Shown: piece by piece, positions 7,751 to 20,579 of the stretch
Layout: each line of letters opens with the position of its first letter
Numbering within the stretch: position 1 is the first letter of the stretch
Source of the DNA: Escherichia phage PEC14
Length of the DNA stretch: 37,268 nucleotides
Strand: one strand, 5' to 3'
Sequence record: NC_073051.1
Notes under the pieces: generated by a model
Database searches by the model: none
Told to the model about the DNA's origin: nothing
The model's input: the letters and a program-made list of their open reading frames with translations, nothing else
Position numbers and translations under genes: made by a program

Positions 7751-9271
7751 ATGACCGTTAACGTTGACAACCAGCACCCGCTCTATGCGCGCATCGCGCC
7801 AGAGTGGAAAATGATTCGCGATTGTGTAGCAGGGGAGCGCGCCGTGAAGGCGTGCGGACCATTGTACCTGCCACACCCAGCCAGCGGCGACACCACCGAC
7901 CCGAAATCGCGTGCGCGCTATAAGGCATATAAGCAACGCGCTGTCTTCCTGAATGCCACCGCCCGAACCCTTAACGCGCTGTTAGGCGTAGCCTTCGCCA
8001 AACCGGTGAGTATGGACCTTTCCGGGGCAATGGCGGACCTGATTGATGACGTAGACGGCAGCGGGATGCCCCTGGCGCAACTCCTGCGCGGCGCTATGTC
8101 GGAAGTGCTGCAATCGGGCCGTGCTGGCTTTATGGTGGACTACGACCGCCAGGCTAACTTTGATGAACTGGGTAACGTAGTGCCGCAGACAGCCGCTGAA
8201 ATGGCGACACACCGCCCGCTTATCCGCCTGTATACGGCAGAGCAGATCATCAACTGGCGGCAGACCCACGGTGTCGACACGCTAATCGTGCTGAAGGAAA
8301 CGGACGAAATCAGCACCGAAGACCCGGACGACTTCGCAAACCACGAGGTAACCATCTGGACCGAGCTTCGCATGATTGACGGCAAGGCACATGGTCGACG
8401 CTGGTTTTACAACGCGGACACGTCAGACGTGCAGATGGACTTGCCGCGCGGCTTCACCCGCACCGACTTAGTGCCGCTGGTGGATGCCTCCGGTAATGCG
8501 CTTACTCAACTGCCATTTTGCTGGTGTGGTGCTGTGGACAACAACGCGACGCCGGACGCCGCACCGCTGGCGGATATTGCATCCATCAACATTAAGCACT
8601 ACAACGCCGAAGCAGACGTCGCCGAGATTGCGCACATTGTGGGCCAACCTACACTCATTGCGACCGGTCTGACCCAATCATGGGCCGATAAAAACCTGAA
8701 GGGCGGCATCGCACTGGGCGCGACTAAGGGCGTTATCCTGGGGCAGAACATGGACGCTAAACTTCTTCAGGCGGAGGAGCGCAACTTGTCTGTTGCCCTG
8801 TGTGAGCGTCGAGAATTGCAAATGGCTAAACTGGGCGCTGCCCTGGTTGAGAAAGGGACTGCACCTAAGACGGCAACCGAAGCGGCCTACGATGCGCAGA
8901 CCGATAACAGTATCCTGTCGCTTATTGCCGGTAATGTCGAGAAGGCTTTCAACCGTGCGCTGCAAATTGTCCAGCTATTCACTGGCGACACCGCCGACCA
9001 GCGCGTAACGCTGAACAAGTTCTACACTGAAATCACGGTTGATGCGCAGCTTATGACCGCGATGATGGCAGGTGTGCAGACCGGTACTGTCCGACTGGCG
9101 GATTTCATCAAGTGGATGATGGCCCAGGGCGTTATCGATGACTCGCAAACCGTTGAGCAGGTGGAAGACGAATTGCGAAATCAGAATCCATTGCCTCAAA
9201 TGTCCCCGGATGCGGTAGAATCTGCCGAAGAAGACCCGGACAAGGTAGCGGACAATGGCGAAGACAATTAA
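7751..9271 (+). CDS. portal protein
   Basis: 506 aa gene between terminase and head morphogenesis gene; AAGGAAA SD; acidic C-terminus. Confidence 0.7.
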   Translation: MTVNVDNQHPLYARIAPEWKMIRDCVAGERAVKACGPLYLPHPASGDTTDPKSRARYKAYKQRAVFLNATARTLNALLGVAFAKPVSMDLSGAMADLIDDVDGSGMPLAQLLRGAMSEVLQSGRAGFMVDYDRQANFDELGNVVPQTAAEMATHRPLIRLYTAEQIINWRQTHGVDTLIVLKETDEISTEDPDDFANHEVTIWTELRMIDGKAHGRRWFYNADTSDVQMDLPRGFTRTDLVPLVDASGNALTQLPFCWCGAVDNNATPDAAPLADIASINIKHYNAEADVAEIAHIVGQPTLIATGLTQSWADKNLKGGIALGATKGVILGQNMDAKLLQAEERNLSVALCERRELQMAKLGAALVEKGTAPKTATEAAYDAQTDNSILSLIAGNVEKAFNRALQIVQLFTGDTADQRVTLNKFYTEITVDAQLMTAMMAGVQTGTVRLADFIKWMMAQGVIDDSQTVEQVEDELRNQNPLPQMSPDAVESAEEDPDKVADNGEDN

Positions 9272-12880: not shown

Positions 12881-13981
12881 ATGTCTTTAACAGTGTTCCA
12901 GCGTAAACTCGTCACCGCGGTTACGCAAATGATTCCCGATAACCTGAACGTGTTCAACGCTGCCGCTAACGGCGCTGTTGTTCTCGGCACGGGTGAAGTG
13001 CTGAAGGACGTTGTAGAAAAAATGTCCGTAGGCTTGATCGCCAACCTCGTTACCGACCGTAACGCCTACGCCCCTGTCGGTACTCCGGCGACCGCAAAAG
13101 TGCTGGCGCGTATGCTGACCAACTCGGTTAACCTTTCCGCGAAAGTTGGTCCGGTAGCAATCACTAAGGCCATGATGGCTAAGATCGAAACCAACGTTAA
13201 CAGCGTTGCGGCTGAGATTGCGGCGCAGGCTACCCAAGCGATTATGCTGCACTACCTGAAAGCGGGTATCGGCGCAAGTAAAGCGGCTATTGAAAGCAAC
13301 GCAGCGGCAAAATACACCCAACCGGCGCGCGTTGACGGCGTGGGTGGTCGTACCTTCCCGACCCTGGCAGACTTTCCGCTGGCGGCTTCCAAGTTCGGCG
13401 ATCAGGCGTCTTTGATTAAATCCTGGTTTATGGACGGCGTTACCTGGGCGAATTTCATTGCATACCAGGCGCTCCCATCTGCCGAGCAGGTATTCGCGAT
13501 CGGCGATCTGCAGGTAATGGGCGATGGCCTGGGCCGCCGTTTCATTATCTCCGATGCCGCTGCCGATGCAATGGGCGCGGGTAAAATGCTGGGCCTGGTG
13601 CCTGGCGCGGTTGCAGTTACCACCAACGGCCTCGATATGCTGGCGCAAGAAAAAGGCGGTAACGAGAACATTGAACGCTGGTGGCAGGGCGAGTTCGACT
13701 TCAACGTGGCTGTTAAAGGCTATCGTCTGAAGGCGTCCGCTCGTACTCCGATCGAAGGTGTTCGCTCGTTCAAACTGGACGATATTACCACTTCCGCTAA
13801 CTGGGAACTGGATCAGGGCCAGGTAGACAACGCACCGGCAACCGTTCAGGATGTTGGCGCTGTTGGTGACGGCGATACTAAAGGCCGTCGTAAGACCCAG
13901 GCCGCACAGGCAGTGCCGACCCGTCACATCAAGGAAACGGCGGGCGTACTGGTTACGCTGACTGCGACCACAGCGTCCTAA
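12881..13981 (+). CDS. major capsid protein
   Basis: 366 aa; AAAGGA SD; directly after scaffold and followed by a strong terminator. Confidence 0.7.
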   Translation: MSLTVFQRKLVTAVTQMIPDNLNVFNAAANGAVVLGTGEVLKDVVEKMSVGLIANLVTDRNAYAPVGTPATAKVLARMLTNSVNLSAKVGPVAITKAMMAKIETNVNSVAAEIAAQATQAIMLHYLKAGIGASKAAIESNAAAKYTQPARVDGVGGRTFPTLADFPLAASKFGDQASLIKSWFMDGVTWANFIAYQALPSAEQVFAIGDLQVMGDGLGRRFIISDAAADAMGAGKMLGLVPGAVAVTTNGLDMLAQEKGGNENIERWWQGEFDFNVAVKGYRLKASARTPIEGVRSFKLDDITTSANWELDQGQVDNAPATVQDVGAVGDGDTKGRRKTQAAQAVPTRHIKETAGVLVTLTATTAS

Positions 13982-14000
13982 CAGGCGCACATCCCAAAGG

Positions 14001-14024
14001 GGCGGGCTTATGCCCGCCTTTTTT
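14001..14024 (+). terminator. rho-independent terminator after capsid gene
   Basis: ggcgggcttatgcccgcc followed by tttttt. Confidence 0.7.
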
Positions 14025-14039
14025 ACAGGAGTGAATAAA

Positions 14040-14540
14040 ATGTATGGCGACCCACAAACCTTTATTGATTATGCCGCCGCGCGAGGTGTTGAAGTCACGC
14101 TGATCGATGCAACGCGACACCTTACCGTCGTTAATGACTTCCTTAACGGCATCAACTGGATCGGAGAACCAGCGGACCAGACAGGCATCGACGCATGGCC
14201 CCGCATCAATTACCCATCTGACGGTAAGCCGGTGCAAAACACGCTTACTGAAGATTTGGCAGTAGTTCCAGCGGGGCAAATAGTAGACTTCGCATCAATC
14301 CCCGTTGCCGTTGAGCAAGCCGTTTACCGGTTGGCGATGTTGGTGGCGGACGAGGTCGATATTTCTCCGGTTGGCAGAGGTAAGGAGACTATCCGCGAAA
14401 CTGTTGGCCCGATCACGATGGAATATGACCCTGCGACGATTGGTAGCGGTGTTTCGTTCCCGTGGTGGGATGGCTTGCTGGGACACTGGATTGACACAGA
14501 CGGCAACGCAGCGGGTAATTTTGACGTATTCCGGGGGTGA
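14040..14540 (+). CDS. putative head-tail connector/head completion protein (166 aa)
   Basis: Position only; start moved to ATG 14040 because the track start lies inside the terminator hairpin. Confidence 0.45.
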   Translation: MYGDPQTFIDYAAARGVEVTLIDATRHLTVVNDFLNGINWIGEPADQTGIDAWPRINYPSDGKPVQNTLTEDLAVVPAGQIVDFASIPVAVEQAVYRLAMLVADEVDISPVGRGKETIRETVGPITMEYDPATIGSGVSFPWWDGLLGHWIDTDGNAAGNFDVFRG

Positions 14541-14541
14541 T

Positions 14542-14658
14542 ATGAATCCTGCATTACTGGCGGCTATTATCGCCGCAAATACTAAACGCCAACCAGAACC
14601 GGAACCAGCGCCAGAACCGGAACCACCGGTACAGGAGGATGATAATGGCGGGCTTTAA
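14542..14658 (+). CDS. possible 38-aa peptide with PEPEPAPEPEP low-complexity tract
   Basis: ATG overlapping upstream TGA; fills a 104-bp gap in an otherwise dense operon. Confidence 0.2.
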   Translation: MNPALLAAIIAANTKRQPEPEPAPEPEPPVQEDDNGGL

Positions 14659-14998
14659 TTACGCTGGCTTGAAGCGGAAAGTCAATCCGCTGATTAAAAA
14701 GTTCGGAATGACGGCTACGGTGACGCGTCCTGGTACAGTCGACCGCGTAGACGGCGACGAAGTTGTCATCCCTCCGACCTCGTTTGACGTCATCGGACTT
14801 CGCGAGGAATACAAGCCAAGCGAGATCGACGGGACGCGTATCGTTGCCGGGGATGTGAAGTTTTTGTGCCAGGCAGTAAAGCCGGTGCAGGTCGGGGATT
14901 TGGTTAGCCTGAACAATACAGACTACAGGGTCATCAATCCAAACCCACTGCAACCGGCTGGAACAACCATGCTGTTTCAACTACAGCTAAGGGGTTAA
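14645..14998 (+). CDS. putative head-tail joining protein (117 aa)
   Basis: GGAGGA SD 6 nt before ATG 14645; position between capsid and tail genes. Confidence 0.45.
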   Translation: MAGFNYAGLKRKVNPLIKKFGMTATVTRPGTVDRVDGDEVVIPPTSFDVIGLREEYKPSEIDGTRIVAGDVKFLCQAVKPVQVGDLVSLNNTDYRVINPNPLQPAGTTMLFQLQLRG

Positions 14999-14999
14999 C

Positions 15000-15593
15000 G
15001 TGGCTGAGGTCTACTCATTCGCCACCACTATTGCAACGTGGGTGGATAAGACGAAGGAGAACAACGACAAGGCGGTGCGTGCGTACGGTATGCAAATACT
15101 TGGACGCCTGATCGAGATCTCCCCGGTGGGCGACCCCCGCCGGTGGAAAATTAACAGGGCTTACGCGCTGGCCCGCCAGCACGCGAACAAGGTGAACGCC
15201 GCACAGCGTCGCAAGAATGGTGGCAAACTGAAGCGCGGGCAGAAGAAGCACGCCAGCGTGCTGGTATCATTCAAGACTAAAAACGGCAACGTCACGTTCC
15301 GCCAGCGTGGCTGGGCCGCGAAGAATTACACCGGCGGACGCTTCCGTGGAAACTGGCAGGTGACGTTCGACCGCCCGGCTGTCGGAGCTATTGATCGCGT
15401 GGATAAGGCAGGAACGGCAACATTAGCAGCGGGGCGTGAAGTGCTGGCGCACTACGATTCGAGTGAATACGGGTCTATCTGGTTTACTAACAACGTGCCG
15501 TACGCGCAGCGCCTGGAGTATGGCTGGAGTAAACAAGCGCCCGCTGGGATTGTTCGCGTAGTAGCGGCAGAAATTAATTCGAAGGTGAAATAA
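15000..15593 (+). CDS. putative neck/tail completion protein (197 aa)
   Basis: GTG start with AAGGGG SD; position in connector region. Confidence 0.45.
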   Translation: MAEVYSFATTIATWVDKTKENNDKAVRAYGMQILGRLIEISPVGDPRRWKINRAYALARQHANKVNAAQRRKNGGKLKRGQKKHASVLVSFKTKNGNVTFRQRGWAAKNYTGGRFRGNWQVTFDRPAVGAIDRVDKAGTATLAAGREVLAHYDSSEYGSIWFTNNVPYAQRLEYGWSKQAPAGIVRVVAAEINSKVK

Positions 15594-16015
15594 TGAGCAA
15601 TACTCTAATACGCAAGGCGCTTAACCGCGTGGTGGAAGATTTATCAGTAAGCCTGAGCACCATCCAGCGACCGATCCTTGTTAACTGGGAGAACGTGCAA
15701 GGGGACCACGCAAACGGTAGTGGTGTCTACCTAGAGCCGTACCTACTACCGGCACCGACCCAGTTTGTGGGCTTCCAGCAAAAGGGGCGAATCTATGCTG
15801 GCGTTTATCAGGTTGCCGTGGTGTTCCCCGCGGGTACGGGCACACAGTACGCGAGCGAACTGGCGGACGCCATCGCTACGTCGGATAAGTGGCTGGCGGT
15901 AAAGATTTCCGGCGCTGCATTCCAGCTTCAGGACGCGCCATACACCAGTTCAGTGGTTGAGGACGTTGACCGCGCCCGCATCGTGGTTACAGTCCCCTAC
16001 ACATGTTGCGCCTGA
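15593..16015 (+). CDS. putative tail terminator protein (140 aa)
   Basis: TAATG overlap with upstream gene; immediately precedes major tail gene. Confidence 0.45.
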   Translation: MSNTLIRKALNRVVEDLSVSLSTIQRPILVNWENVQGDHANGSGVYLEPYLLPAPTQFVGFQQKGRIYAGVYQVAVVFPAGTGTQYASELADAIATSDKWLAVKISGAAFQLQDAPYTSSVVEDVDRARIVVTVPYTCCA

Positions 16016-16872: not shown

Positions 16873-17235
16873 ATGGCTAAAGCACCACTCTTTACACTCG
16901 ACCCTAAGCCGACCTTTAAGCTGCCGATTGAGATCCCGCGCCCTGGTGAGAACGAACCGGGCAAAATGACGTTTACCGTGCGCCACCGCCCTATCGACGA
17001 ATTTTCGCAGACCATGCAGGACACTGAGCGCAAATTGTCGGAGTATGACGACAATGACCCGGAAGGATTTAACGTTATGGTCGAGGCCATCATGCACGTC
17101 GCTGAAGGCTGGAATTTGCCGGACGAATTTAATGCCGCCAACGTCCGCCGCCTGGTGGTCAACTACCCGCGCGCGTTCGGCGTGTTCCATACGTCGTACT
17201 ACCTCGAATTGATGGGGTTGCGTGAAAAAAACTAA
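16873..17235 (+). CDS. tail assembly chaperone (lambda G-like)
   Basis: Acidic 120-aa protein between major tail and tape measure genes; ends on slippery heptamer A_AAA_AAC. Confidence 0.65.
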   Translation: MAKAPLFTLDPKPTFKLPIEIPRPGENEPGKMTFTVRHRPIDEFSQTMQDTERKLSEYDDNDPEGFNVMVEAIMHVAEGWNLPDEFNAANVRRLVVNYPRAFGVFHTSYYLELMGLREKN

Positions 17236-17933: not shown

Positions 17934-20579
17934 ATGGCAGATCAGGCAGCGGGCATCACGCTCAAGGCGGACGTCGCGCAAATTAAAACGGCTAATACTG
18001 TGCTGGACACATTTGCGCAGAAATCCGAGAACACAGAACAGAAAGTAAAGAAATTAAACGACACCCTCGGCAAGTCGAAAAAGGTTACTGGCGACGCCGC
18101 TGGCGGAATGGAGAAGTTAGCGACTGAATCGCAGCGTGCCGCCGATGGCATGACGAAACAGGAGCGACTCGCCAGCCGATTAGGCATGTCTACCAAAAAC
18201 CTGGGATTCGCATCGCGGAACGCCGCATTCCAGTTGCAGGATATTGCGGTAACGCTTGAGATGGGTATGCCGGTCCACCGCGTTATGCTTCAGCAGCTAC
18301 CGCAGCTTACTGGGGCGTTTGGCGGACTTGGAAACACACTGCGATATGTTGCGGGCTTTCTCGGCCCAGTAGGGATCGGCCTTTCGGCATTAACGGCGAC
18401 GTTAGGCGTAGGGGTGGCAATTACGACCCGCGCAGAGAACCAGGTGGCGGCGCTTAATAAGACGCTGGCGCTATCCGGTAATATTTCAGGCCTCACAGCT
18501 AACCAGATCCTTGTGCTGTCCGAGAACGCCGAGCGCATGGGCGGGTCATTCCGCAAGACGCGTGACACAATCCAGGCGCTGGCGGCGGCGGGTGTGAAAG
18601 CGGGTGGTGACTTCGGCGCATTGGCTAAGGTAGTTAATGACTTTGCGAAGGTGTCCAGCCAGCCGATCGAGGATGTGGTAGCGGCGGTGGCGAAGCTGTC
18701 AACCGACCCCGTTGGCGGACTGCGTGCGCTGGCGGATAAGTATCACGTCGTAAACGAAGCGCAGATCCAGCAGGTACAGTCGCTCGTTGATACGGGTCGT
18801 GAGACAGACGCAGTTGCGTTGGCTAACAAAACAGCCGCGGCGTCGTTCACCAGCATGACCAATGAGATCAAGGCGAACATGGGTACGCTTGAGCGGTCGA
18901 TGAACGTCGTTACATCGGCAGCTAAGTCTATGTGGGATGCCATCCTGGATGTGGGCCGCGCGCAGTCCTCCAATGAGTCCGAGATGAAAGCGCGCGAATC
19001 ACTACAGCGCATGACCACGGCTTACTATGCCGAGATGAAAGCGGTAAACGCTGCCGGTGGAGTGATGACCGAAGCTCAGAAAGCGCGTATTAACATGCTT
19101 TATAGCGAACTGGTCGCCCAGGAGAAAGTAGTGGCGTCGCTCACCCTTCGTAACCGTGCGGAGCGAGACAACGCCCGCGCCGCAGACGAATCCGCAAAGG
19201 CGAACGAGGAGGCTAACCGCACCGCCCGCGACCGCGCTGCGTTCGAGAAGGAGTACGCAACTAACGCGAAGAAGCGCGCAGACGAGATAGCCCGCCTCAA
19301 TTTGCTGAATAAGCGCGGCGTTATTGACGAGAAAGAGCTTGCTGAGGCGGTTAAGCAGGTAAACGAGCGTTACAAAGACCCGGCCCCGAAGAAGGCCGCG
19401 GCTGTTCGCGTGGATGCCGGTATGAAAATGCTGGAAGTCGCACGGAGCGAACTGGCCCAGCTTCGAGAATCAGGCAAACAGATCGAAGCCAACGCATCGA
19501 CGCAGACCCGCACGCAACGCGCTCAAGCGGCCCTAAACAAGCTGATCGCCGACAATGAGCAGTTAATCGCTGCGAGCAAAGAAAGAGCGCTAACGGCAGC
19601 CGAAAAGCAGCAGATGGTGGAATTTGGACGCGTGAAGGAAGTGCGCGAGCAGATCGTCGAAGAAGCCAAATTGCTGGACGCGAAAGAGAAGCAGGTTAAG
19701 GCGCACGCGCAGATCGATGCCTTCGTTAAGAACCAGAACGCCGAACTAAAAGCCACCGCGGCGGGCTATGCGCTTTCCACTCGCGAAGCGGCAAACCTGC
19801 GCGAAGAATTGCAGCTAATCGACCGTCTGAAGAGGGTTGGCGCTAACGATACCGATATAGACAAGGCGGTGTCTAAGCTGCGGGAAGTGCAGGAGGCGCA
19901 GACCGGCGCTAACGCCTCGCTATGGGATGGATTCAGTCGCGGGCTTAAGGATAGCGTGGATGAGATGGGTAACGGATATACGCAGATGACGTCACTCACA
20001 AAATTCACGTTCAGCGCTATGCAGGACACGATGAACGAGTTTTTCGAGACGGGCAAGATTAACGCGAAGGATATGGTCAAATCCATCCTGAGCGAGTTAA
20101 TCAAGCTGGCTACCTCGCAGGCGTTCAAGTCGATTGTTAGCGCTTTCGGTGGTGACGGCGGCAAAAACGGATTGTTCGGCGCTATCTTCTCGGGCCTCAC
20201 TAAGAATGCGGACGGCGGAGCGTACGCAGGAGGCAATCTGGCGGCCTATTCGGGGAAAGTGGTAAGCCAGCCTACCTTTTTCAGTTATGGCGTCCAGGCG
20301 TTCGCTAAGGGCGCAGGATTGATGGGTGAGGCCGGTCCCGAGGCCATCATGCCTCTGAAGCGCGGGCCGGACGGGAAACTGGGCGTTGCCGCTTCGGGTG
20401 CTGGCGGCGGTGGTATGGTCGTGACGACTAACGTTTACACGGGGACTGGTAAAACGGATACCAGTGTCAGCGGGCCGGACCCCCGTACCGCGCAGGCGTT
20501 CGGCAAGCAAATCACCGAGGCGGTGAAGGCTGAGATCGTGAAAGCGACGAAACCGGGTGGTGTACTTTACAAACGATGA
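17934..20579 (+). CDS. tape measure protein
   Basis: 881 aa, Ala/Gln/Lys-rich helical repeats with Gly-rich C-terminal region; directly after chaperone/frameshift gene. Confidence 0.85.
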   Translation: MADQAAGITLKADVAQIKTANTVLDTFAQKSENTEQKVKKLNDTLGKSKKVTGDAAGGMEKLATESQRAADGMTKQERLASRLGMSTKNLGFASRNAAFQLQDIAVTLEMGMPVHRVMLQQLPQLTGAFGGLGNTLRYVAGFLGPVGIGLSALTATLGVGVAITTRAENQVAALNKTLALSGNISGLTANQILVLSENAERMGGSFRKTRDTIQALAAAGVKAGGDFGALAKVVNDFAKVSSQPIEDVVAAVAKLSTDPVGGLRALADKYHVVNEAQIQQVQSLVDTGRETDAVALANKTAAASFTSMTNEIKANMGTLERSMNVVTSAAKSMWDAILDVGRAQSSNESEMKARESLQRMTTAYYAEMKAVNAAGGVMTEAQKARINMLYSELVAQEKVVASLTLRNRAERDNARAADESAKANEEANRTARDRAAFEKEYATNAKKRADEIARLNLLNKRGVIDEKELAEAVKQVNERYKDPAPKKAAAVRVDAGMKMLEVARSELAQLRESGKQIEANASTQTRTQRAQAALNKLIADNEQLIAASKERALTAAEKQQMVEFGRVKEVREQIVEEAKLLDAKEKQVKAHAQIDAFVKNQNAELKATAAGYALSTREAANLREELQLIDRLKRVGANDTDIDKAVSKLREVQEAQTGANASLWDGFSRGLKDSVDEMGNGYTQMTSLTKFTFSAMQDTMNEFFETGKINAKDMVKSILSELIKLATSQAFKSIVSAFGGDGGKNGLFGAIFSGLTKNADGGAYAGGNLAAYSGKVVSQPTFFSYGVQAFAKGAGLMGEAGPEAIMPLKRGPDGKLGVAASGAGGGGMVVTTNVYTGTGKTDTSVSGPDPRTAQAFGKQITEAVKAEIVKATKPGGVLYKR

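What the first reader, a model, noticed from the sequence alone, without database searches (positions are those of the whole stretch)
14542..14658. Possible short PEPEP-repeat peptide in a gap of the connector operon
A 38-codon ORF (MNPALLAAIIAANTKRQPEPEPAPEPEPPVQEDDNGGL) starts at an ATG overlapping the upstream stop and ends inside the next gene start. It is in the +1 frame relative to the upstream gene, so it could be an independent small gene or, speculatively, a C-terminal extension reached by frameshifting. The Pro-Glu tract is encoded by a short nucleotide repeat and may vary in length.
Basis: seen in the sequence. Interest (0 to 1): 0.2.

Follow-up and report, generated by a model that had tools for sequence, protein, structure and literature searches.

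The report
Conserved micro-gene in phage neck operon
The 38-codon reading frame between the head-tail adaptor and stopper genes of this Dhillonvirus phage is a real, separately translated small gene, already annotated as "hypothetical protein" in relatives; it is not a frameshift extension, and it may encode a small neck-associated peptide with a variable Pro-Glu spacer.

Summary
The ORF exists at 14542..14658 (+). One detail of the finding is wrong: the ATG lies 1 nt after the upstream stop (TGA-T-ATG) and does not overlap it.

The window is a Dhillonvirus, 99.9% identical to Escherichia phage PEC9. The ORF sits between the adaptor Ad1 and the stopper Hc1.

- **Already known:** the exact peptide is in NCBI as EP23p12, and it matches phrog_11158 (unknown function).
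- **Coding:** the frame is open in all 42 Dhillonvirus loci examined. The other five frames are closed in at least 36 of 41. All indels are multiples of 3. pN/pS at the N-terminus is about 0.37, against 1.8 and 3.7 in the shifted frames.
- **Translation start:** the ATG and a strong Shine-Dalgarno sequence (-9.9 kcal/mol) are conserved.
- **Frameshift rejected:** the spacer after the Ad1 stop is 1 nt in most lineages but 2 nt in one Dhillonvirus lineage and in Edwardsiella phage eiAU, so the frame relative to Ad1 is not conserved.
- **Variable tract confirmed:** the Pro-Glu tract varies, giving 34-56 aa proteins.
- **Ig-domain alleles:** two relatives carry an Ig domain inserted in the tract (122 and 147 aa, dN/dS about 0.13). 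This suggests a virion-exposed neck accessory held by the conserved N-terminal hydrophobic helix.

The function is inferred, not shown. Interest is low to moderate.

The parts
14000..14025 (+). Intrinsic terminator between the major capsid gene (12881..13981) and the neck genes. Context only: it sets lower expression of the downstream neck operon.
   Evidence: Terminator-like hairpin GGGCGGGCTTATGCCC followed by a T-run. The same site is annotated as a terminator in phage WF5505.
14040..14540 (+). Head-tail adaptor Ad1 (166 aa), the upstream gene. It ends ...CGG GGG TGA.
   Evidence: phrog_477 'head-tail adaptor Ad1', E 4.9e-36. Pfam PF20557 DnaT_2, E 7.6e-14.
14533..14541 (+). Shine-Dalgarno-like GGGGGTGAT, formed by the last Ad1 codons and its stop. 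It serves the small ORF's ATG (stop-restart coupling, TGA-T-ATG).
   Evidence: Duplex with the 16S rRNA 3' end is -9.9 kcal/mol. Only 2.3% of background positions in the window reach -8 or below. A purine-rich equivalent is present in all relatives.
14542..14658 (+). The small gene (38 aa), a member of phrog_11158. It is identical to EP23p12 and to the Gluttony_ev152 hypothetical protein.
   Evidence: The frame is conserved in 42/42 Dhillonvirus loci.
14542..14586 (+). Codons 1-15, MNPALLAAIIAANTK: the only strongly conserved part, a hydrophobic Ala/Leu/Ile helix.
   Evidence: In codons 2-13, 11 of 12 third positions vary, against 6 first and 4 second positions. pN/pS is 0.36-0.37, against 1.8 and 3.7 in the shifted frames. 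AlphaFold2 predicts a helix at residues 3-14, with mean pLDDT 86 for residues 1-10.
14593..14628 (+). Pro-Glu tract PEPEPAPEPEPP, encoded by two 18-nt tandem units. Its length is polymorphic among relatives.
   Evidence: Relatives have one to three 18-nt units or up to about 15 PE dipeptides.
14633..14639 (+). Shine-Dalgarno AGGAGGA of Hc1, embedded in the small ORF's codons CAG GAG GAT. It constrains the acidic C-terminal residues.
   Evidence: -10.3 kcal/mol for the ATG at 14645. Equivalent GGAG or GGAGG motifs occur in all relatives.
14645..14658 (+). 14-nt overlap of the small ORF's end (..AAT GGC GGG CTT TAA) with the Hc1 start (ATG GCG GGC TTT AAT).
   Evidence: The same overlap is present in all standalone Dhillonvirus alleles examined that lack the Ig domain. 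Columns 59-61 of the alignment are nearly invariant.
14645..14998 (+). Head closure / stopper protein Hc1 (117 aa), the downstream gene.
   Evidence: phrog_161 'head closure Hc1', E 6.8e-30. Near-identical to PDB 10lj chain A 'Stopper protein gp12', E 7.8e-72.

Best explanation
The ORF is an independent, translationally coupled micro-gene of the Dhillonvirus neck operon.

How it is expressed (inferred from sequence signals): ribosomes finishing Ad1 at TGA, or ribosomes recruited by the GGGGGTGAT Shine-Dalgarno sequence, start at the ATG 1 nt downstream. They make a 4-kDa peptide and stop 14 nt inside Hc1. The peptide's own codons carry the Hc1 Shine-Dalgarno sequence, so Ad1, the peptide and Hc1 are expressed as one coupled chain.

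What the peptide looks like (shown by comparison): it has three zones.
1. A conserved 15-residue hydrophobic N-terminal helix, which is the functional core.
2. A Pro-Glu/Pro-X low-complexity acidic spacer. It evolves by repeat slippage and tolerates large length changes and even a domain insertion.
3. A short acidic tail whose sequence is largely dictated by the overlapping Hc1 ribosome-binding site and start.

What it does (inferred, about 0.4): it is a neck-associated accessory or decoration. The helix docks on the adaptor/stopper rings and the spacer is solvent-exposed. In two relatives the spacer displays an Ig-like domain.
For: Identity and context:
- The window is a Dhillonvirus, 99.9% identical to PEC9.
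- Gene order is capsid, terminator, Ad1, small ORF, Hc1, Ne1, Tc1.

Coding:
- The frame is open in 42/42 Dhillonvirus loci. 41 are standalone ORFs of 35-56 aa.
- The two alternative forward frames hold stops in 41/41 and 39/41 loci. The reverse frames hold stops in at least 36/41.
- Every indel is a multiple of 3.
- N-terminal pN/pS is 0.36-0.37, against 1.8 and 3.7 in the shifted frames. The flanking Ad1 and Hc1 give 0.18 and 0.15.
- A 51-aa counterpart with the same architecture occupies the same gap in Edwardsiella phage eiAU, whose Ad1 is only 40% identical by tblastn.

Translation signals:
- The ATG is conserved. The Shine-Dalgarno duplex is -9.9 kcal/mol, comparable to Hc1 at -10.3.
- The Hc1-to-Ne1 junction has the same design: AGG GGT TAA C GTG.

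Family:
- phrog_11158, E 1.9e-26.
- 39 clusters of 34-51 aa, all standalone.
- The exact sequence is annotated in EP23 and Gluttony_ev152.

Exposure and virion link:
- Contig L050 encodes, in the same slot, a 122-aa allele. It has the same N-terminal helix, a Pfam Ig_3 domain (33.2 bits, cutoff 30) and a PE tail.
- Isolate SM_A2 has a 147-aa allele that is 67% identical.
- dN/dS between the two is about 0.125.
- The Ig domain's nearest relatives lie in major tail, Hoc-like and fibritin/whisker proteins. Phage Ig-like domains are described as features of virion structural proteins (PMC7563437, citing Fraser et al. 2006).

Structure: AlphaFold2 predicts a helix at residues 3-14 and no regular structure for the rest.
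Against: - There is no direct evidence that the peptide is made or is in the virion. Lysate proteomics of phage EE09 listed Ad1 (1 peptide) but not the 35-aa product CDS26 (PMC10673088). That peptide yields at most one good tryptic fragment, so this is weak evidence.
- No chain resembling the peptide is in the PDB copy, even though near-identical Dhillonvirus portal, capsid, stopper and terminator chains are. Ad1 and Ne1 are missing too, so the relevant part of the neck may simply not be represented.
- The gene is absent from Serratia, Pectobacterium, Enterobacter and Cronobacter relatives, where the Ad1 stop directly abuts the Hc1 ATG. It is therefore not required for this type of neck.
- Constraint on the spacer and tail is weak (pN/pS 0.66).
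- In phage Ioannina two 1-nt insertions replace the acidic tail by a basic one fused to Hc1.
- Ig-bearing alleles are rare: 2 found.
Confidence: 0.75

Rival explanations
1. Frameshift product: the frame is a C-terminal extension of Ad1, reached by a programmed +1 shift at ...CGG GGG TGA. It would give a minor long form of the adaptor.
For: The +1 frame is open upstream to 14305. A G5 run followed by a stop lies at the junction.
Against: The frame relation to Ad1 is not conserved. It is +1 (1-nt spacer) in 38 loci, but -1 (2-nt spacer) in L018, L024, L032, L046 and in eiAU. The putative slip codons vary (GGG TGA, GGG TAA, GGT TAA, GGC TAA). An ATG with a strong Shine-Dalgarno sequence is conserved at the first codon in every relative. 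No Ad1-length fusion appears among homologues in 5.8 billion proteins.
Confidence: 0.03
2. Coupling spacer: translation of the ORF matters only to pass ribosomes from Ad1 to Hc1 and so set stoichiometry. The peptide itself has no function.
For: The gene is absent where Ad1 and Hc1 abut directly. The tail is dictated by the Hc1 Shine-Dalgarno sequence and the overlap. The spacer is weakly constrained and varies in length. The Ioannina variant has an altered tail.
Against: The N-terminal residues are conserved through abundant synonymous change, with up to four codons per invariant Ala, and pN/pS is 0.37. The helix-plus-spacer architecture is kept in eiAU despite only 32-34% peptide identity to the Dhillonvirus forms. 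Ig-bearing alleles are under strong purifying selection.
Confidence: 0.12
3. Non-virion assembly factor: the peptide acts only in the cell and is not incorporated. For example, it could transiently cap Ad1 or Hc1 monomers to prevent premature ring formation or head-tail joining.
For: It is positioned between, and coupled to, Ad1 and Hc1. It was not detected in EE09 lysate proteomics. No matching chain is in PDB entries of Dhillonvirus virion parts.
Against: Insertion of an Ig-like domain is, as far as described, a hallmark of virion-exposed structural proteins. Both negative data sets are weak, because the peptide is poorly suited to tryptic MS and Ad1 is also missing from the PDB copy.
Confidence: 0.2
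4. Non-coding element: the gap is an intergenic repeat or RNA element, and the ORF is incidental.
For: The region contains a short tandem repeat. An ORF of 38 codons is unremarkable by chance.
Against: Substitutions follow a codon-position pattern, and only this one frame of six is open in every relative. No Rfam match lies in 14540-14660. The only terminator-like hit there is on the minus strand, among 6 hits in the scanned region against 4.1 expected by chance.
Confidence: 0.02

Closest known systems
phrog_11158 / pVOG VOG10345: Dhillonvirus 'hypothetical protein' between Ad1 and Hc1 (EP23p12, HK578 gp10, SSL-2009a gp12, EE09_26; eiAUOrf28 in Edwardsiella phage eiAU)
   Same: Full-length profile match (E 1.9e-26). 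The sequence is identical to EP23p12 and to the Gluttony_ev152 protein. It has the same syntenic slot and the same overlap with Hc1.
   Different: Nothing differs. This is the family the ORF belongs to, and no function has been assigned to it. It is left unannotated in roughly half of the records inspected, including PEC9, SO-1, JLBYU27, bov16_1, BMA1, SM_A2 and the eiAU RefSeq record.
Ig-like-domain virion decoration proteins (T4 Hoc, fibritin/whisker proteins, C-terminal Ig domain of lambdoid major tail proteins)
   Same: Two alleles of this gene (L050 122 aa; SM_A2 147 aa) carry an Ig_3 domain. Its nearest relatives are in exactly these protein classes. The architecture is a small anchor module plus a flexible linker plus a displayed domain.
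   Different: The window's allele has no Ig domain, only a helix and a Pro-Glu spacer. The anchor is a 15-residue helix, not a folded capsid-binding domain. Virion location is not shown.
Programmed-frameshift extensions in phage structural genes (the G/GT tail assembly chaperone, also present in this window at 17226-17232; T7 gene 10A/10B)
   Same: A short downstream frame follows the end of a structural gene out of frame.
   Different: There is no conserved slippery site, the frame relation varies among relatives, and the ORF has its own ATG and Shine-Dalgarno sequence. By contrast, the window's genuine -1 site A_AAA_AAC at the chaperone gene is canonical.
Pro-Glu / Glu-Pro rigid spacers such as the (EP)n-(KP)n segment of TonB
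   Same: It has a dipeptide Pro-Glu repeat composition. Long alleles give sub-threshold compositional hits to TonB, ClfB and DnaX linker regions.
   Different: The scores are far below the family cut-offs (18.9 against 315 bits for TonB). The resemblance is in composition and likely extended conformation only, not homology.

Membership tests
phrog_11158 (Dhillonvirus/Eiauvirus small ORF between Ad1 and Hc1) | Full-length match to the family profile | tested here: met
   E 1.9e-26, residues 1-38 on profile positions 1-38 of 38. The exact sequence is present in NCBI as EP23p12 and the Gluttony_ev152 protein.
phrog_11158 (Dhillonvirus/Eiauvirus small ORF between Ad1 and Hc1) | Syntenic position: starts 1-2 nt after the Ad1 stop and ends inside the Hc1 start | tested here: met
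   Window. The 40 other standalone loci lacking the Ig domain show the same arrangement, and so does eiAU.
Programmed ribosomal frameshift extension of a structural gene | Conserved slippery sequence at the end of the upstream gene | tested here: not met
   The terminal codons vary: CGG GGG TGA, AGG GGG TAA, AGA GGT TAA/TGA, AGG GGC TAA. No X_XXY_YYZ heptamer is present.
Programmed ribosomal frameshift extension of a structural gene | The same frame offset between the upstream gene and the extension in all relatives | tested here: not met
   The offset is +1 in 38 loci, but -1 in 4 Dhillonvirus loci and in eiAU.
Programmed ribosomal frameshift extension of a structural gene | The extension lacks its own initiation signals | tested here: not met
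   The ATG is invariant and the Shine-Dalgarno duplex is -9.9 kcal/mol.
Ig-like-domain phage virion decoration proteins | Presence of an Ig-like (I-set/Ig_3, Big_2 or FN3) domain | tested here: not met
   The window peptide has no Pfam hit. The feature is met only in the alleles of L050 (Ig_3, 33.2 bits) and SM_A2.
Ig-like-domain phage virion decoration proteins | Physical presence on the virion surface | not testable with these tools
   EE09 lysate proteomics did not list the peptide. No matching PDB chain was found. Both negatives are weak.
TonB-type Pro-Glu spacer | Score above the family cut-off (homology) | tested here: not met
   NCBIfam TonB gave 18.9 bits against a cut-off of 315, and only for the 56-aa allele. 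The window allele gave no TonB hit.
Rz1-type o-spanin (small proline-rich phage lipoprotein) | Lipobox with an invariant Cys after a signal sequence | tested here: not met
   The peptide contains no Cys. It lies in the neck operon, not the lysis cassette.

The most novel reading that the evidence does not exclude
The peptide is the minimal form of an unrecognised neck-decoration scaffold. A 15-residue hydrophobic helix would plug into the adaptor/stopper rings of the virion. It would present, probably in 6-12 copies, a rapidly evolving acidic polyproline-like whisker. In some Dhillonviruses this whisker has been turned into an Ig-domain display site, making it one of the smallest known virion components. 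A less likely variant (about 0.03) is a +1 shift at the terminal CUU_UAA of the small ORF, which would fuse it to Hc1 as the Ioannina genome does genetically.
Probability: 0.35. Interest if true: 0.45.

Novelty: already known. Interest (0 to 1): 0.25.

Why it matters
The practical value lies mainly in annotation. About half of the Dhillonvirus records inspected omit this gene. Some replace it with a spurious upstream extension of Hc1 (ZCEC10) or a reverse-strand ORF (SM_A2).

Biologically, it is a clean example of a lineage-specific micro-gene inserted exactly at a stop-start junction of a coupled operon. The peptide's C-terminus is shaped by the next gene's ribosome-binding site, and its middle is a slippage-prone spacer that can accept a whole Ig domain.

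If the peptide is a neck component, it would add a new minimal class of virion decoration. It would also offer a natural display site on a well-used group of E. coli phages, which includes BASEL and SECphi phages used in defence-system studies.

Tried and rejected
1. Frameshift extension of Ad1: rejected on the variable frame offset and variable terminal codons.
2. A +1 shift at CUU_UAA from the small ORF into Hc1: the site is explained by Hc1 codons (GGC TTT AAT). It is not kept in eiAU, WF5505 or L042, and the Shine-Dalgarno spacing does not fit the RF2 type. No evidence supports it.
3. RNA element: no Rfam match in the ORF.
4. Ksap1, the small Dhillonvirus protein sensed by KpAvs2: this is a different 74-aa gene located between methyltransferase and phosphatase genes (PMC11564622).
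5. Rz1-like lipoprotein: the peptide has no Cys.
6. Natural fusions to Ad1 or Hc1 as a Rosetta-stone clue: none among 39 clusters or 7 exhaustive-search hits. The only one is the Ioannina fusion, which may be a sequencing error.
7. Searches for intermediate relatives: a metagenome scan gave only 11 further Dhillonviruses, and the first alignment was too divergent to use.
9. Published virion proteomics:
   - EE09: the peptide was not listed.
   - SECphi4: only a 150-kDa gel band was analysed, so it is uninformative.
10. No paper describing PDB entries 9zys, 10ec, 10lj or 11cq was found.
11. The AlphaFold2 model of Hc1 from a single sequence was poor (pLDDT 56). It only confirmed a stopper-like fold, with the T1 stopper as best hit.
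12. A second protein search for more Ig-bearing alleles returned only the query, and an IMG/VR scan returned none.

Full report
**Observation.** The ORF exists as described at 14542..14658 on the + strand and encodes MNPALLAAIIAANTKRQPEPEPAPEPEPPVQEDDNGGL.
- Two details of the finding are right. The ORF is in the +1 frame relative to 14040..14540. It ends (TAA 14656-14658) 14 nt inside the next gene (ATG 14645).
- One detail is wrong. The ATG does not overlap the upstream stop; the sequence is TGA (14538-14540), T, ATG (14542-14544).
- The Pro-Glu tract is encoded by two 18-nt tandem units, 14593-14610 and 14611-14628, which are 17/18 identical. Tandem Repeats Finder sees period 6, 5.8 copies.
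- A 38-codon ORF is not remarkable by itself. Sixty ORFs of at least 30 aa occur in all frames of a 5.5-kb stretch.

**Context.** The window is a Dhillonvirus siphophage, 99.9% identical to Escherichia phage PEC9 over this region. 153 phage records match it.
- Gene order is: major capsid 12881..13981, intrinsic terminator 14000-14025, adaptor Ad1 14040..14540, the small ORF, stopper Hc1 14645..14998, Ne1 15000..15593, terminator protein Tc1 15593..16015.
- The small ORF is annotated as "hypothetical protein" in HK578 (gp10), Gluttony_ev152, bob (VOG10345), EE09, bov25_1D, WF5505 and 22664B1.
- It is left out in PEC9, SO-1, JLBYU27, bov16_1, BMA1 and the eiAU RefSeq record.
- It matches phrog_11158, function unknown, over its full length (E 1.9e-26).
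- The exact 38-aa sequence is in NCBI as EP23p12 and as a Gluttony_ev152 protein.

**Is it coding?** I examined 42 Dhillonvirus loci, including the window. They came from GenBank phages, IMG/VR and metagenomes.
- The frame is open in all 42. 41 are standalone ORFs of 35-56 aa and one is fused to Hc1.
- The two alternative forward frames contain stops in 41/41 and 39/41 loci. The three reverse frames contain stops in at least 36/41.
- All length differences are multiples of 3. Part of this is expected from a 6-nt repeat, but -9, +3 and +15 also occur.
- In codons 2-13, 11 of 12 third positions vary, against 6 first and 4 second positions. The invariant Ala residues are written with two to four different codons.
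- Pairwise pN/pS for this block is 0.36-0.37, against 1.8 and 3.7 when the same bases are read in the other two frames. The flanking Ad1 and Hc1 give 0.18 and 0.15.
- The seven codons before the overlap are only weakly constrained (0.66).

**Frameshift hypothesis.** It is not supported, for four reasons.
- The spacer between the Ad1 stop and the ATG is 1 nt in 38 loci (+1 frame). It is 2 nt (-1 frame) in L018, L024, L032 and L046, and in Edwardsiella phage eiAU.
- The codons preceding the stop differ among lineages: CGG GGG TGA, AGG GGG TAA, AGA GGT TAA/TGA, AGG GGC TAA.
- What is conserved is an ATG and a purine-rich Shine-Dalgarno sequence. In the window, GGGGGTGAT pairs with the 16S rRNA 3' end at -9.9 kcal/mol. 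That is as good as Hc1 (-10.3) and is reached by about 2% of background positions.
- The Hc1-to-Ne1 junction has the same design, AGG GGT TAA C GTG.

This is therefore a chain of stop-restart couplings, not recoding.

**Anatomy.** The peptide has three zones.
1. Residues 1-15 form a hydrophobic Ala/Leu/Ile helix. AlphaFold2 predicts a helix at residues 3-14, with pLDDT about 86. This zone is conserved as MNPA[LIV][LI][AV]A[IML][IL]AA... in Dhillonviruses. It is recognisable as MISIPVTAALIAV in eiAU.
2. The middle zone is a Pro-Glu/Pro-X acidic spacer whose length is polymorphic.
   - One to three 18-nt units occur.
   - Up to about 15 PE dipeptides are found in bov16_1.
   - PVPVPVP occurs in ZCEC10.
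   - KEKEKEEE occurs in WF5505.
3. The tail (Q-E-D/E-D/E-x-G-G-L) overlaps the Hc1 Shine-Dalgarno AGGAGGA (14633-14639) and the Hc1 start codons. Its conservation is largely imposed by Hc1.

Long alleles give only compositional, sub-threshold hits to TonB, ClfB and DnaX linkers.

**Distribution and origin.**
- A profile search of 5.8 billion proteins found 39 clusters, all 34-51 aa. They come from Dhillonviruses, Salmonella phage Kenya-K19 and Edwardsiella phages.
- An exhaustive HMM search of 1.84 billion representatives added nothing except one longer relative, described below, and compositional hits.
- In Serratia, Pectobacterium, Enterobacter and Cronobacter phages with homologous Ad1 (32-38% identity) and Hc1, the Ad1 stop is followed within 2-4 nt by the Hc1 ATG.
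- The micro-gene is therefore an insertion of about 100 nt at an ancestral stop-start junction. In the window the insert is flanked by TGATA (14538-14542 and 14640-14644). Deleting between these repeats recreates such a junction. This is an inference.

**The informative relatives.**
- Representative P0041 (122 aa) is encoded on a Dhillonvirus contig in exactly this slot. It starts 1 nt after the Ad1 stop and has the same 14-nt overlap with Hc1. It reads: MNPALLVAIIAANTK-RPPEPVP, then an Ig domain, then VVEPEPEEDENGGL. The domain is Pfam Ig_3 (33.2 bits, cutoff 30).
- The cultured phage SM_A2 has a 147-aa allele that is 67% identical, with about 20 PE repeats after the Ig domain. It is unannotated in the record.
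- Between the two alleles, pS is saturated (about 0.7) while pN is 0.21, giving dN/dS of about 0.125. The Ig-bearing form has therefore been maintained by selection.
- By tblastn, the Ig domain's nearest relatives are in lambdoid major tail proteins, Hoc-like decoration proteins and T4-type fibritin/whisker proteins.
- Phage Ig-like domains are described as belonging to virion structural proteins such as Hoc, fibritin, major tail and baseplate proteins (PMC7563437, citing Fraser et al. 2006).
- The spacer thus tolerates a folded, normally surface-displayed domain. Only the N-terminal helix is common to all alleles; SM_A2 even lacks the DGGL tail.

**Direct evidence is lacking.**
- Lysate proteomics of Dhillonvirus EE09 detected 24 phage proteins, including Ad1 with a single peptide. 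It did not detect the 35-aa CDS26 (PMC10673088). With one usable tryptic peptide, this is a weak negative.
- The PDB sequence copy contains near-identical Dhillonvirus virion proteins: 9zys capsid gp09; 10ec and 11cq portal; 10lj stopper gp12 and terminator gp14.
- That gene numbering implies gp10 = Ad1 and gp11 = this ORF. Yet no chain matches the peptide, Ad1 or Ne1. No paper on these entries was found.

**Mechanism and rivals.**
- I consider it about 0.9 likely that this is an independently initiated, translationally coupled protein-coding micro-gene whose functional core is the N-terminal helix.
- About 0.4: the peptide is a neck-associated accessory or decoration, with the helix docked on the adaptor/stopper rings and the spacer exposed.
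- About 0.2: it is a transient assembly factor that is not incorporated.
- About 0.12: it is a pure coupling spacer.
- About 0.03: it is a frameshift extension.
- About 0.02: it is a non-coding element.

**Novelty and verdict.**
- The ORF is already catalogued, in NCBI records since EP23, in PHROGs and in pVOGs, with unknown function. Hence "already known".
- This analysis adds four things:
  - a clear rejection of the frameshift idea;
  - confirmation of tract-length polymorphism;
  - the three-zone constraint map;
  - the Ig-insertion alleles that point to virion exposure.
- Interest is low to moderate (0.25).

Noticed in passing
L049 (Escherichia phage Ioannina OQ589852.1) 8421-8882; equivalent to window 14542-14998: Two 1-nt insertions (G at 8498, A at 8522) fuse the first 26 codons of the small ORF in frame to Hc1, through AGTTRRRRKR. 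The result is annotated as a 153-aa 'head tail attachment' protein. Against the 99.4%-identical LM40P1, these are two of only three indels in the first 22,981 nt. Whether this is a real variant or a sequencing error is unresolved.
   Followed up: partly
L051 (Escherichia phage SM_A2 PP920552.1) about 1201-1800: The Ig-bearing allele (147 aa) is unannotated; a reverse-strand 'hypothetical protein' is annotated over it instead. The record also shows a tandem duplication of the end of the PE tract plus the first 27 nt of Hc1. This could be an assembly artefact at the (GAGCCA)n repeat or a real duplication.
   Followed up: partly
window 17226-17232 (genes 16873..17235 and the -1 frame to 17549): A canonical -1 slippery heptamer, A_AAA_AAC, lies at the end of the tail assembly chaperone gene. 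The -1 frame is open for a further 105 codons (KKLIEAARRFYGPPPPSEDL...). This is the usual G/GT-type frameshift upstream of the tape measure gene (17934..20579).
   Followed up: partly
window 14000-14025: A strong intrinsic terminator hairpin (GGGCGGGCTTATGCCC plus a T-run) sits between the major capsid gene and the neck genes. It gave only sub-threshold Rfam sRNA hits. The same site is annotated as a terminator in phage WF5505. It probably attenuates expression of the neck genes relative to the capsid gene.
   Followed up: no
window 7751-9271, 12881-13981, 14645-14998, 15593-16015: Near-identical proteins have solved structures in the PDB sequence copy: portal 10ec/11cq, capsid 9zys, stopper and terminator 10lj. 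Adaptor Ad1 and Ne1 have none. The deposited gene numbers (gp09, gp12, gp14) imply the small ORF is gp11 of that phage. The 10lj stopper chain starts 2 residues upstream of MAGFNY, as if the 14639-type ATG had been used.
   Followed up: partly
window 14538-14542 and 14640-14644: A TGATA direct repeat flanks the small-ORF insert. Removing the sequence between the copies gives GGGGGTGATAATGGCG. That is an Ad1-stop/Hc1-ATG junction like the one in Serratia, Pectobacterium, Enterobacter and Cronobacter relatives, which lack the ORF.
   Followed up: no
window 14990-15002: The Hc1-to-Ne1 junction (AGG GGT TAA C GTG) has the same '...Arg-Gly-stop, 1 nt, start' design as the Ad1-to-small-ORF junction. 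Ne1 starts with GTG, and several GenBank records instead annotate a later internal ATG, about 90 nt downstream.
   Followed up: no
L034 (ZCEC10 NC_073075.1) 810-1274; L022 (phage bob) 696-734: In ZCEC10 the small ORF is intact (43 aa) but unannotated, and Hc1 is annotated with a spurious 37-codon upstream extension in its own frame. Phage bob has an in-frame +18 nt insertion within Ad1, annotated as a repeat_region.
   Followed up: no
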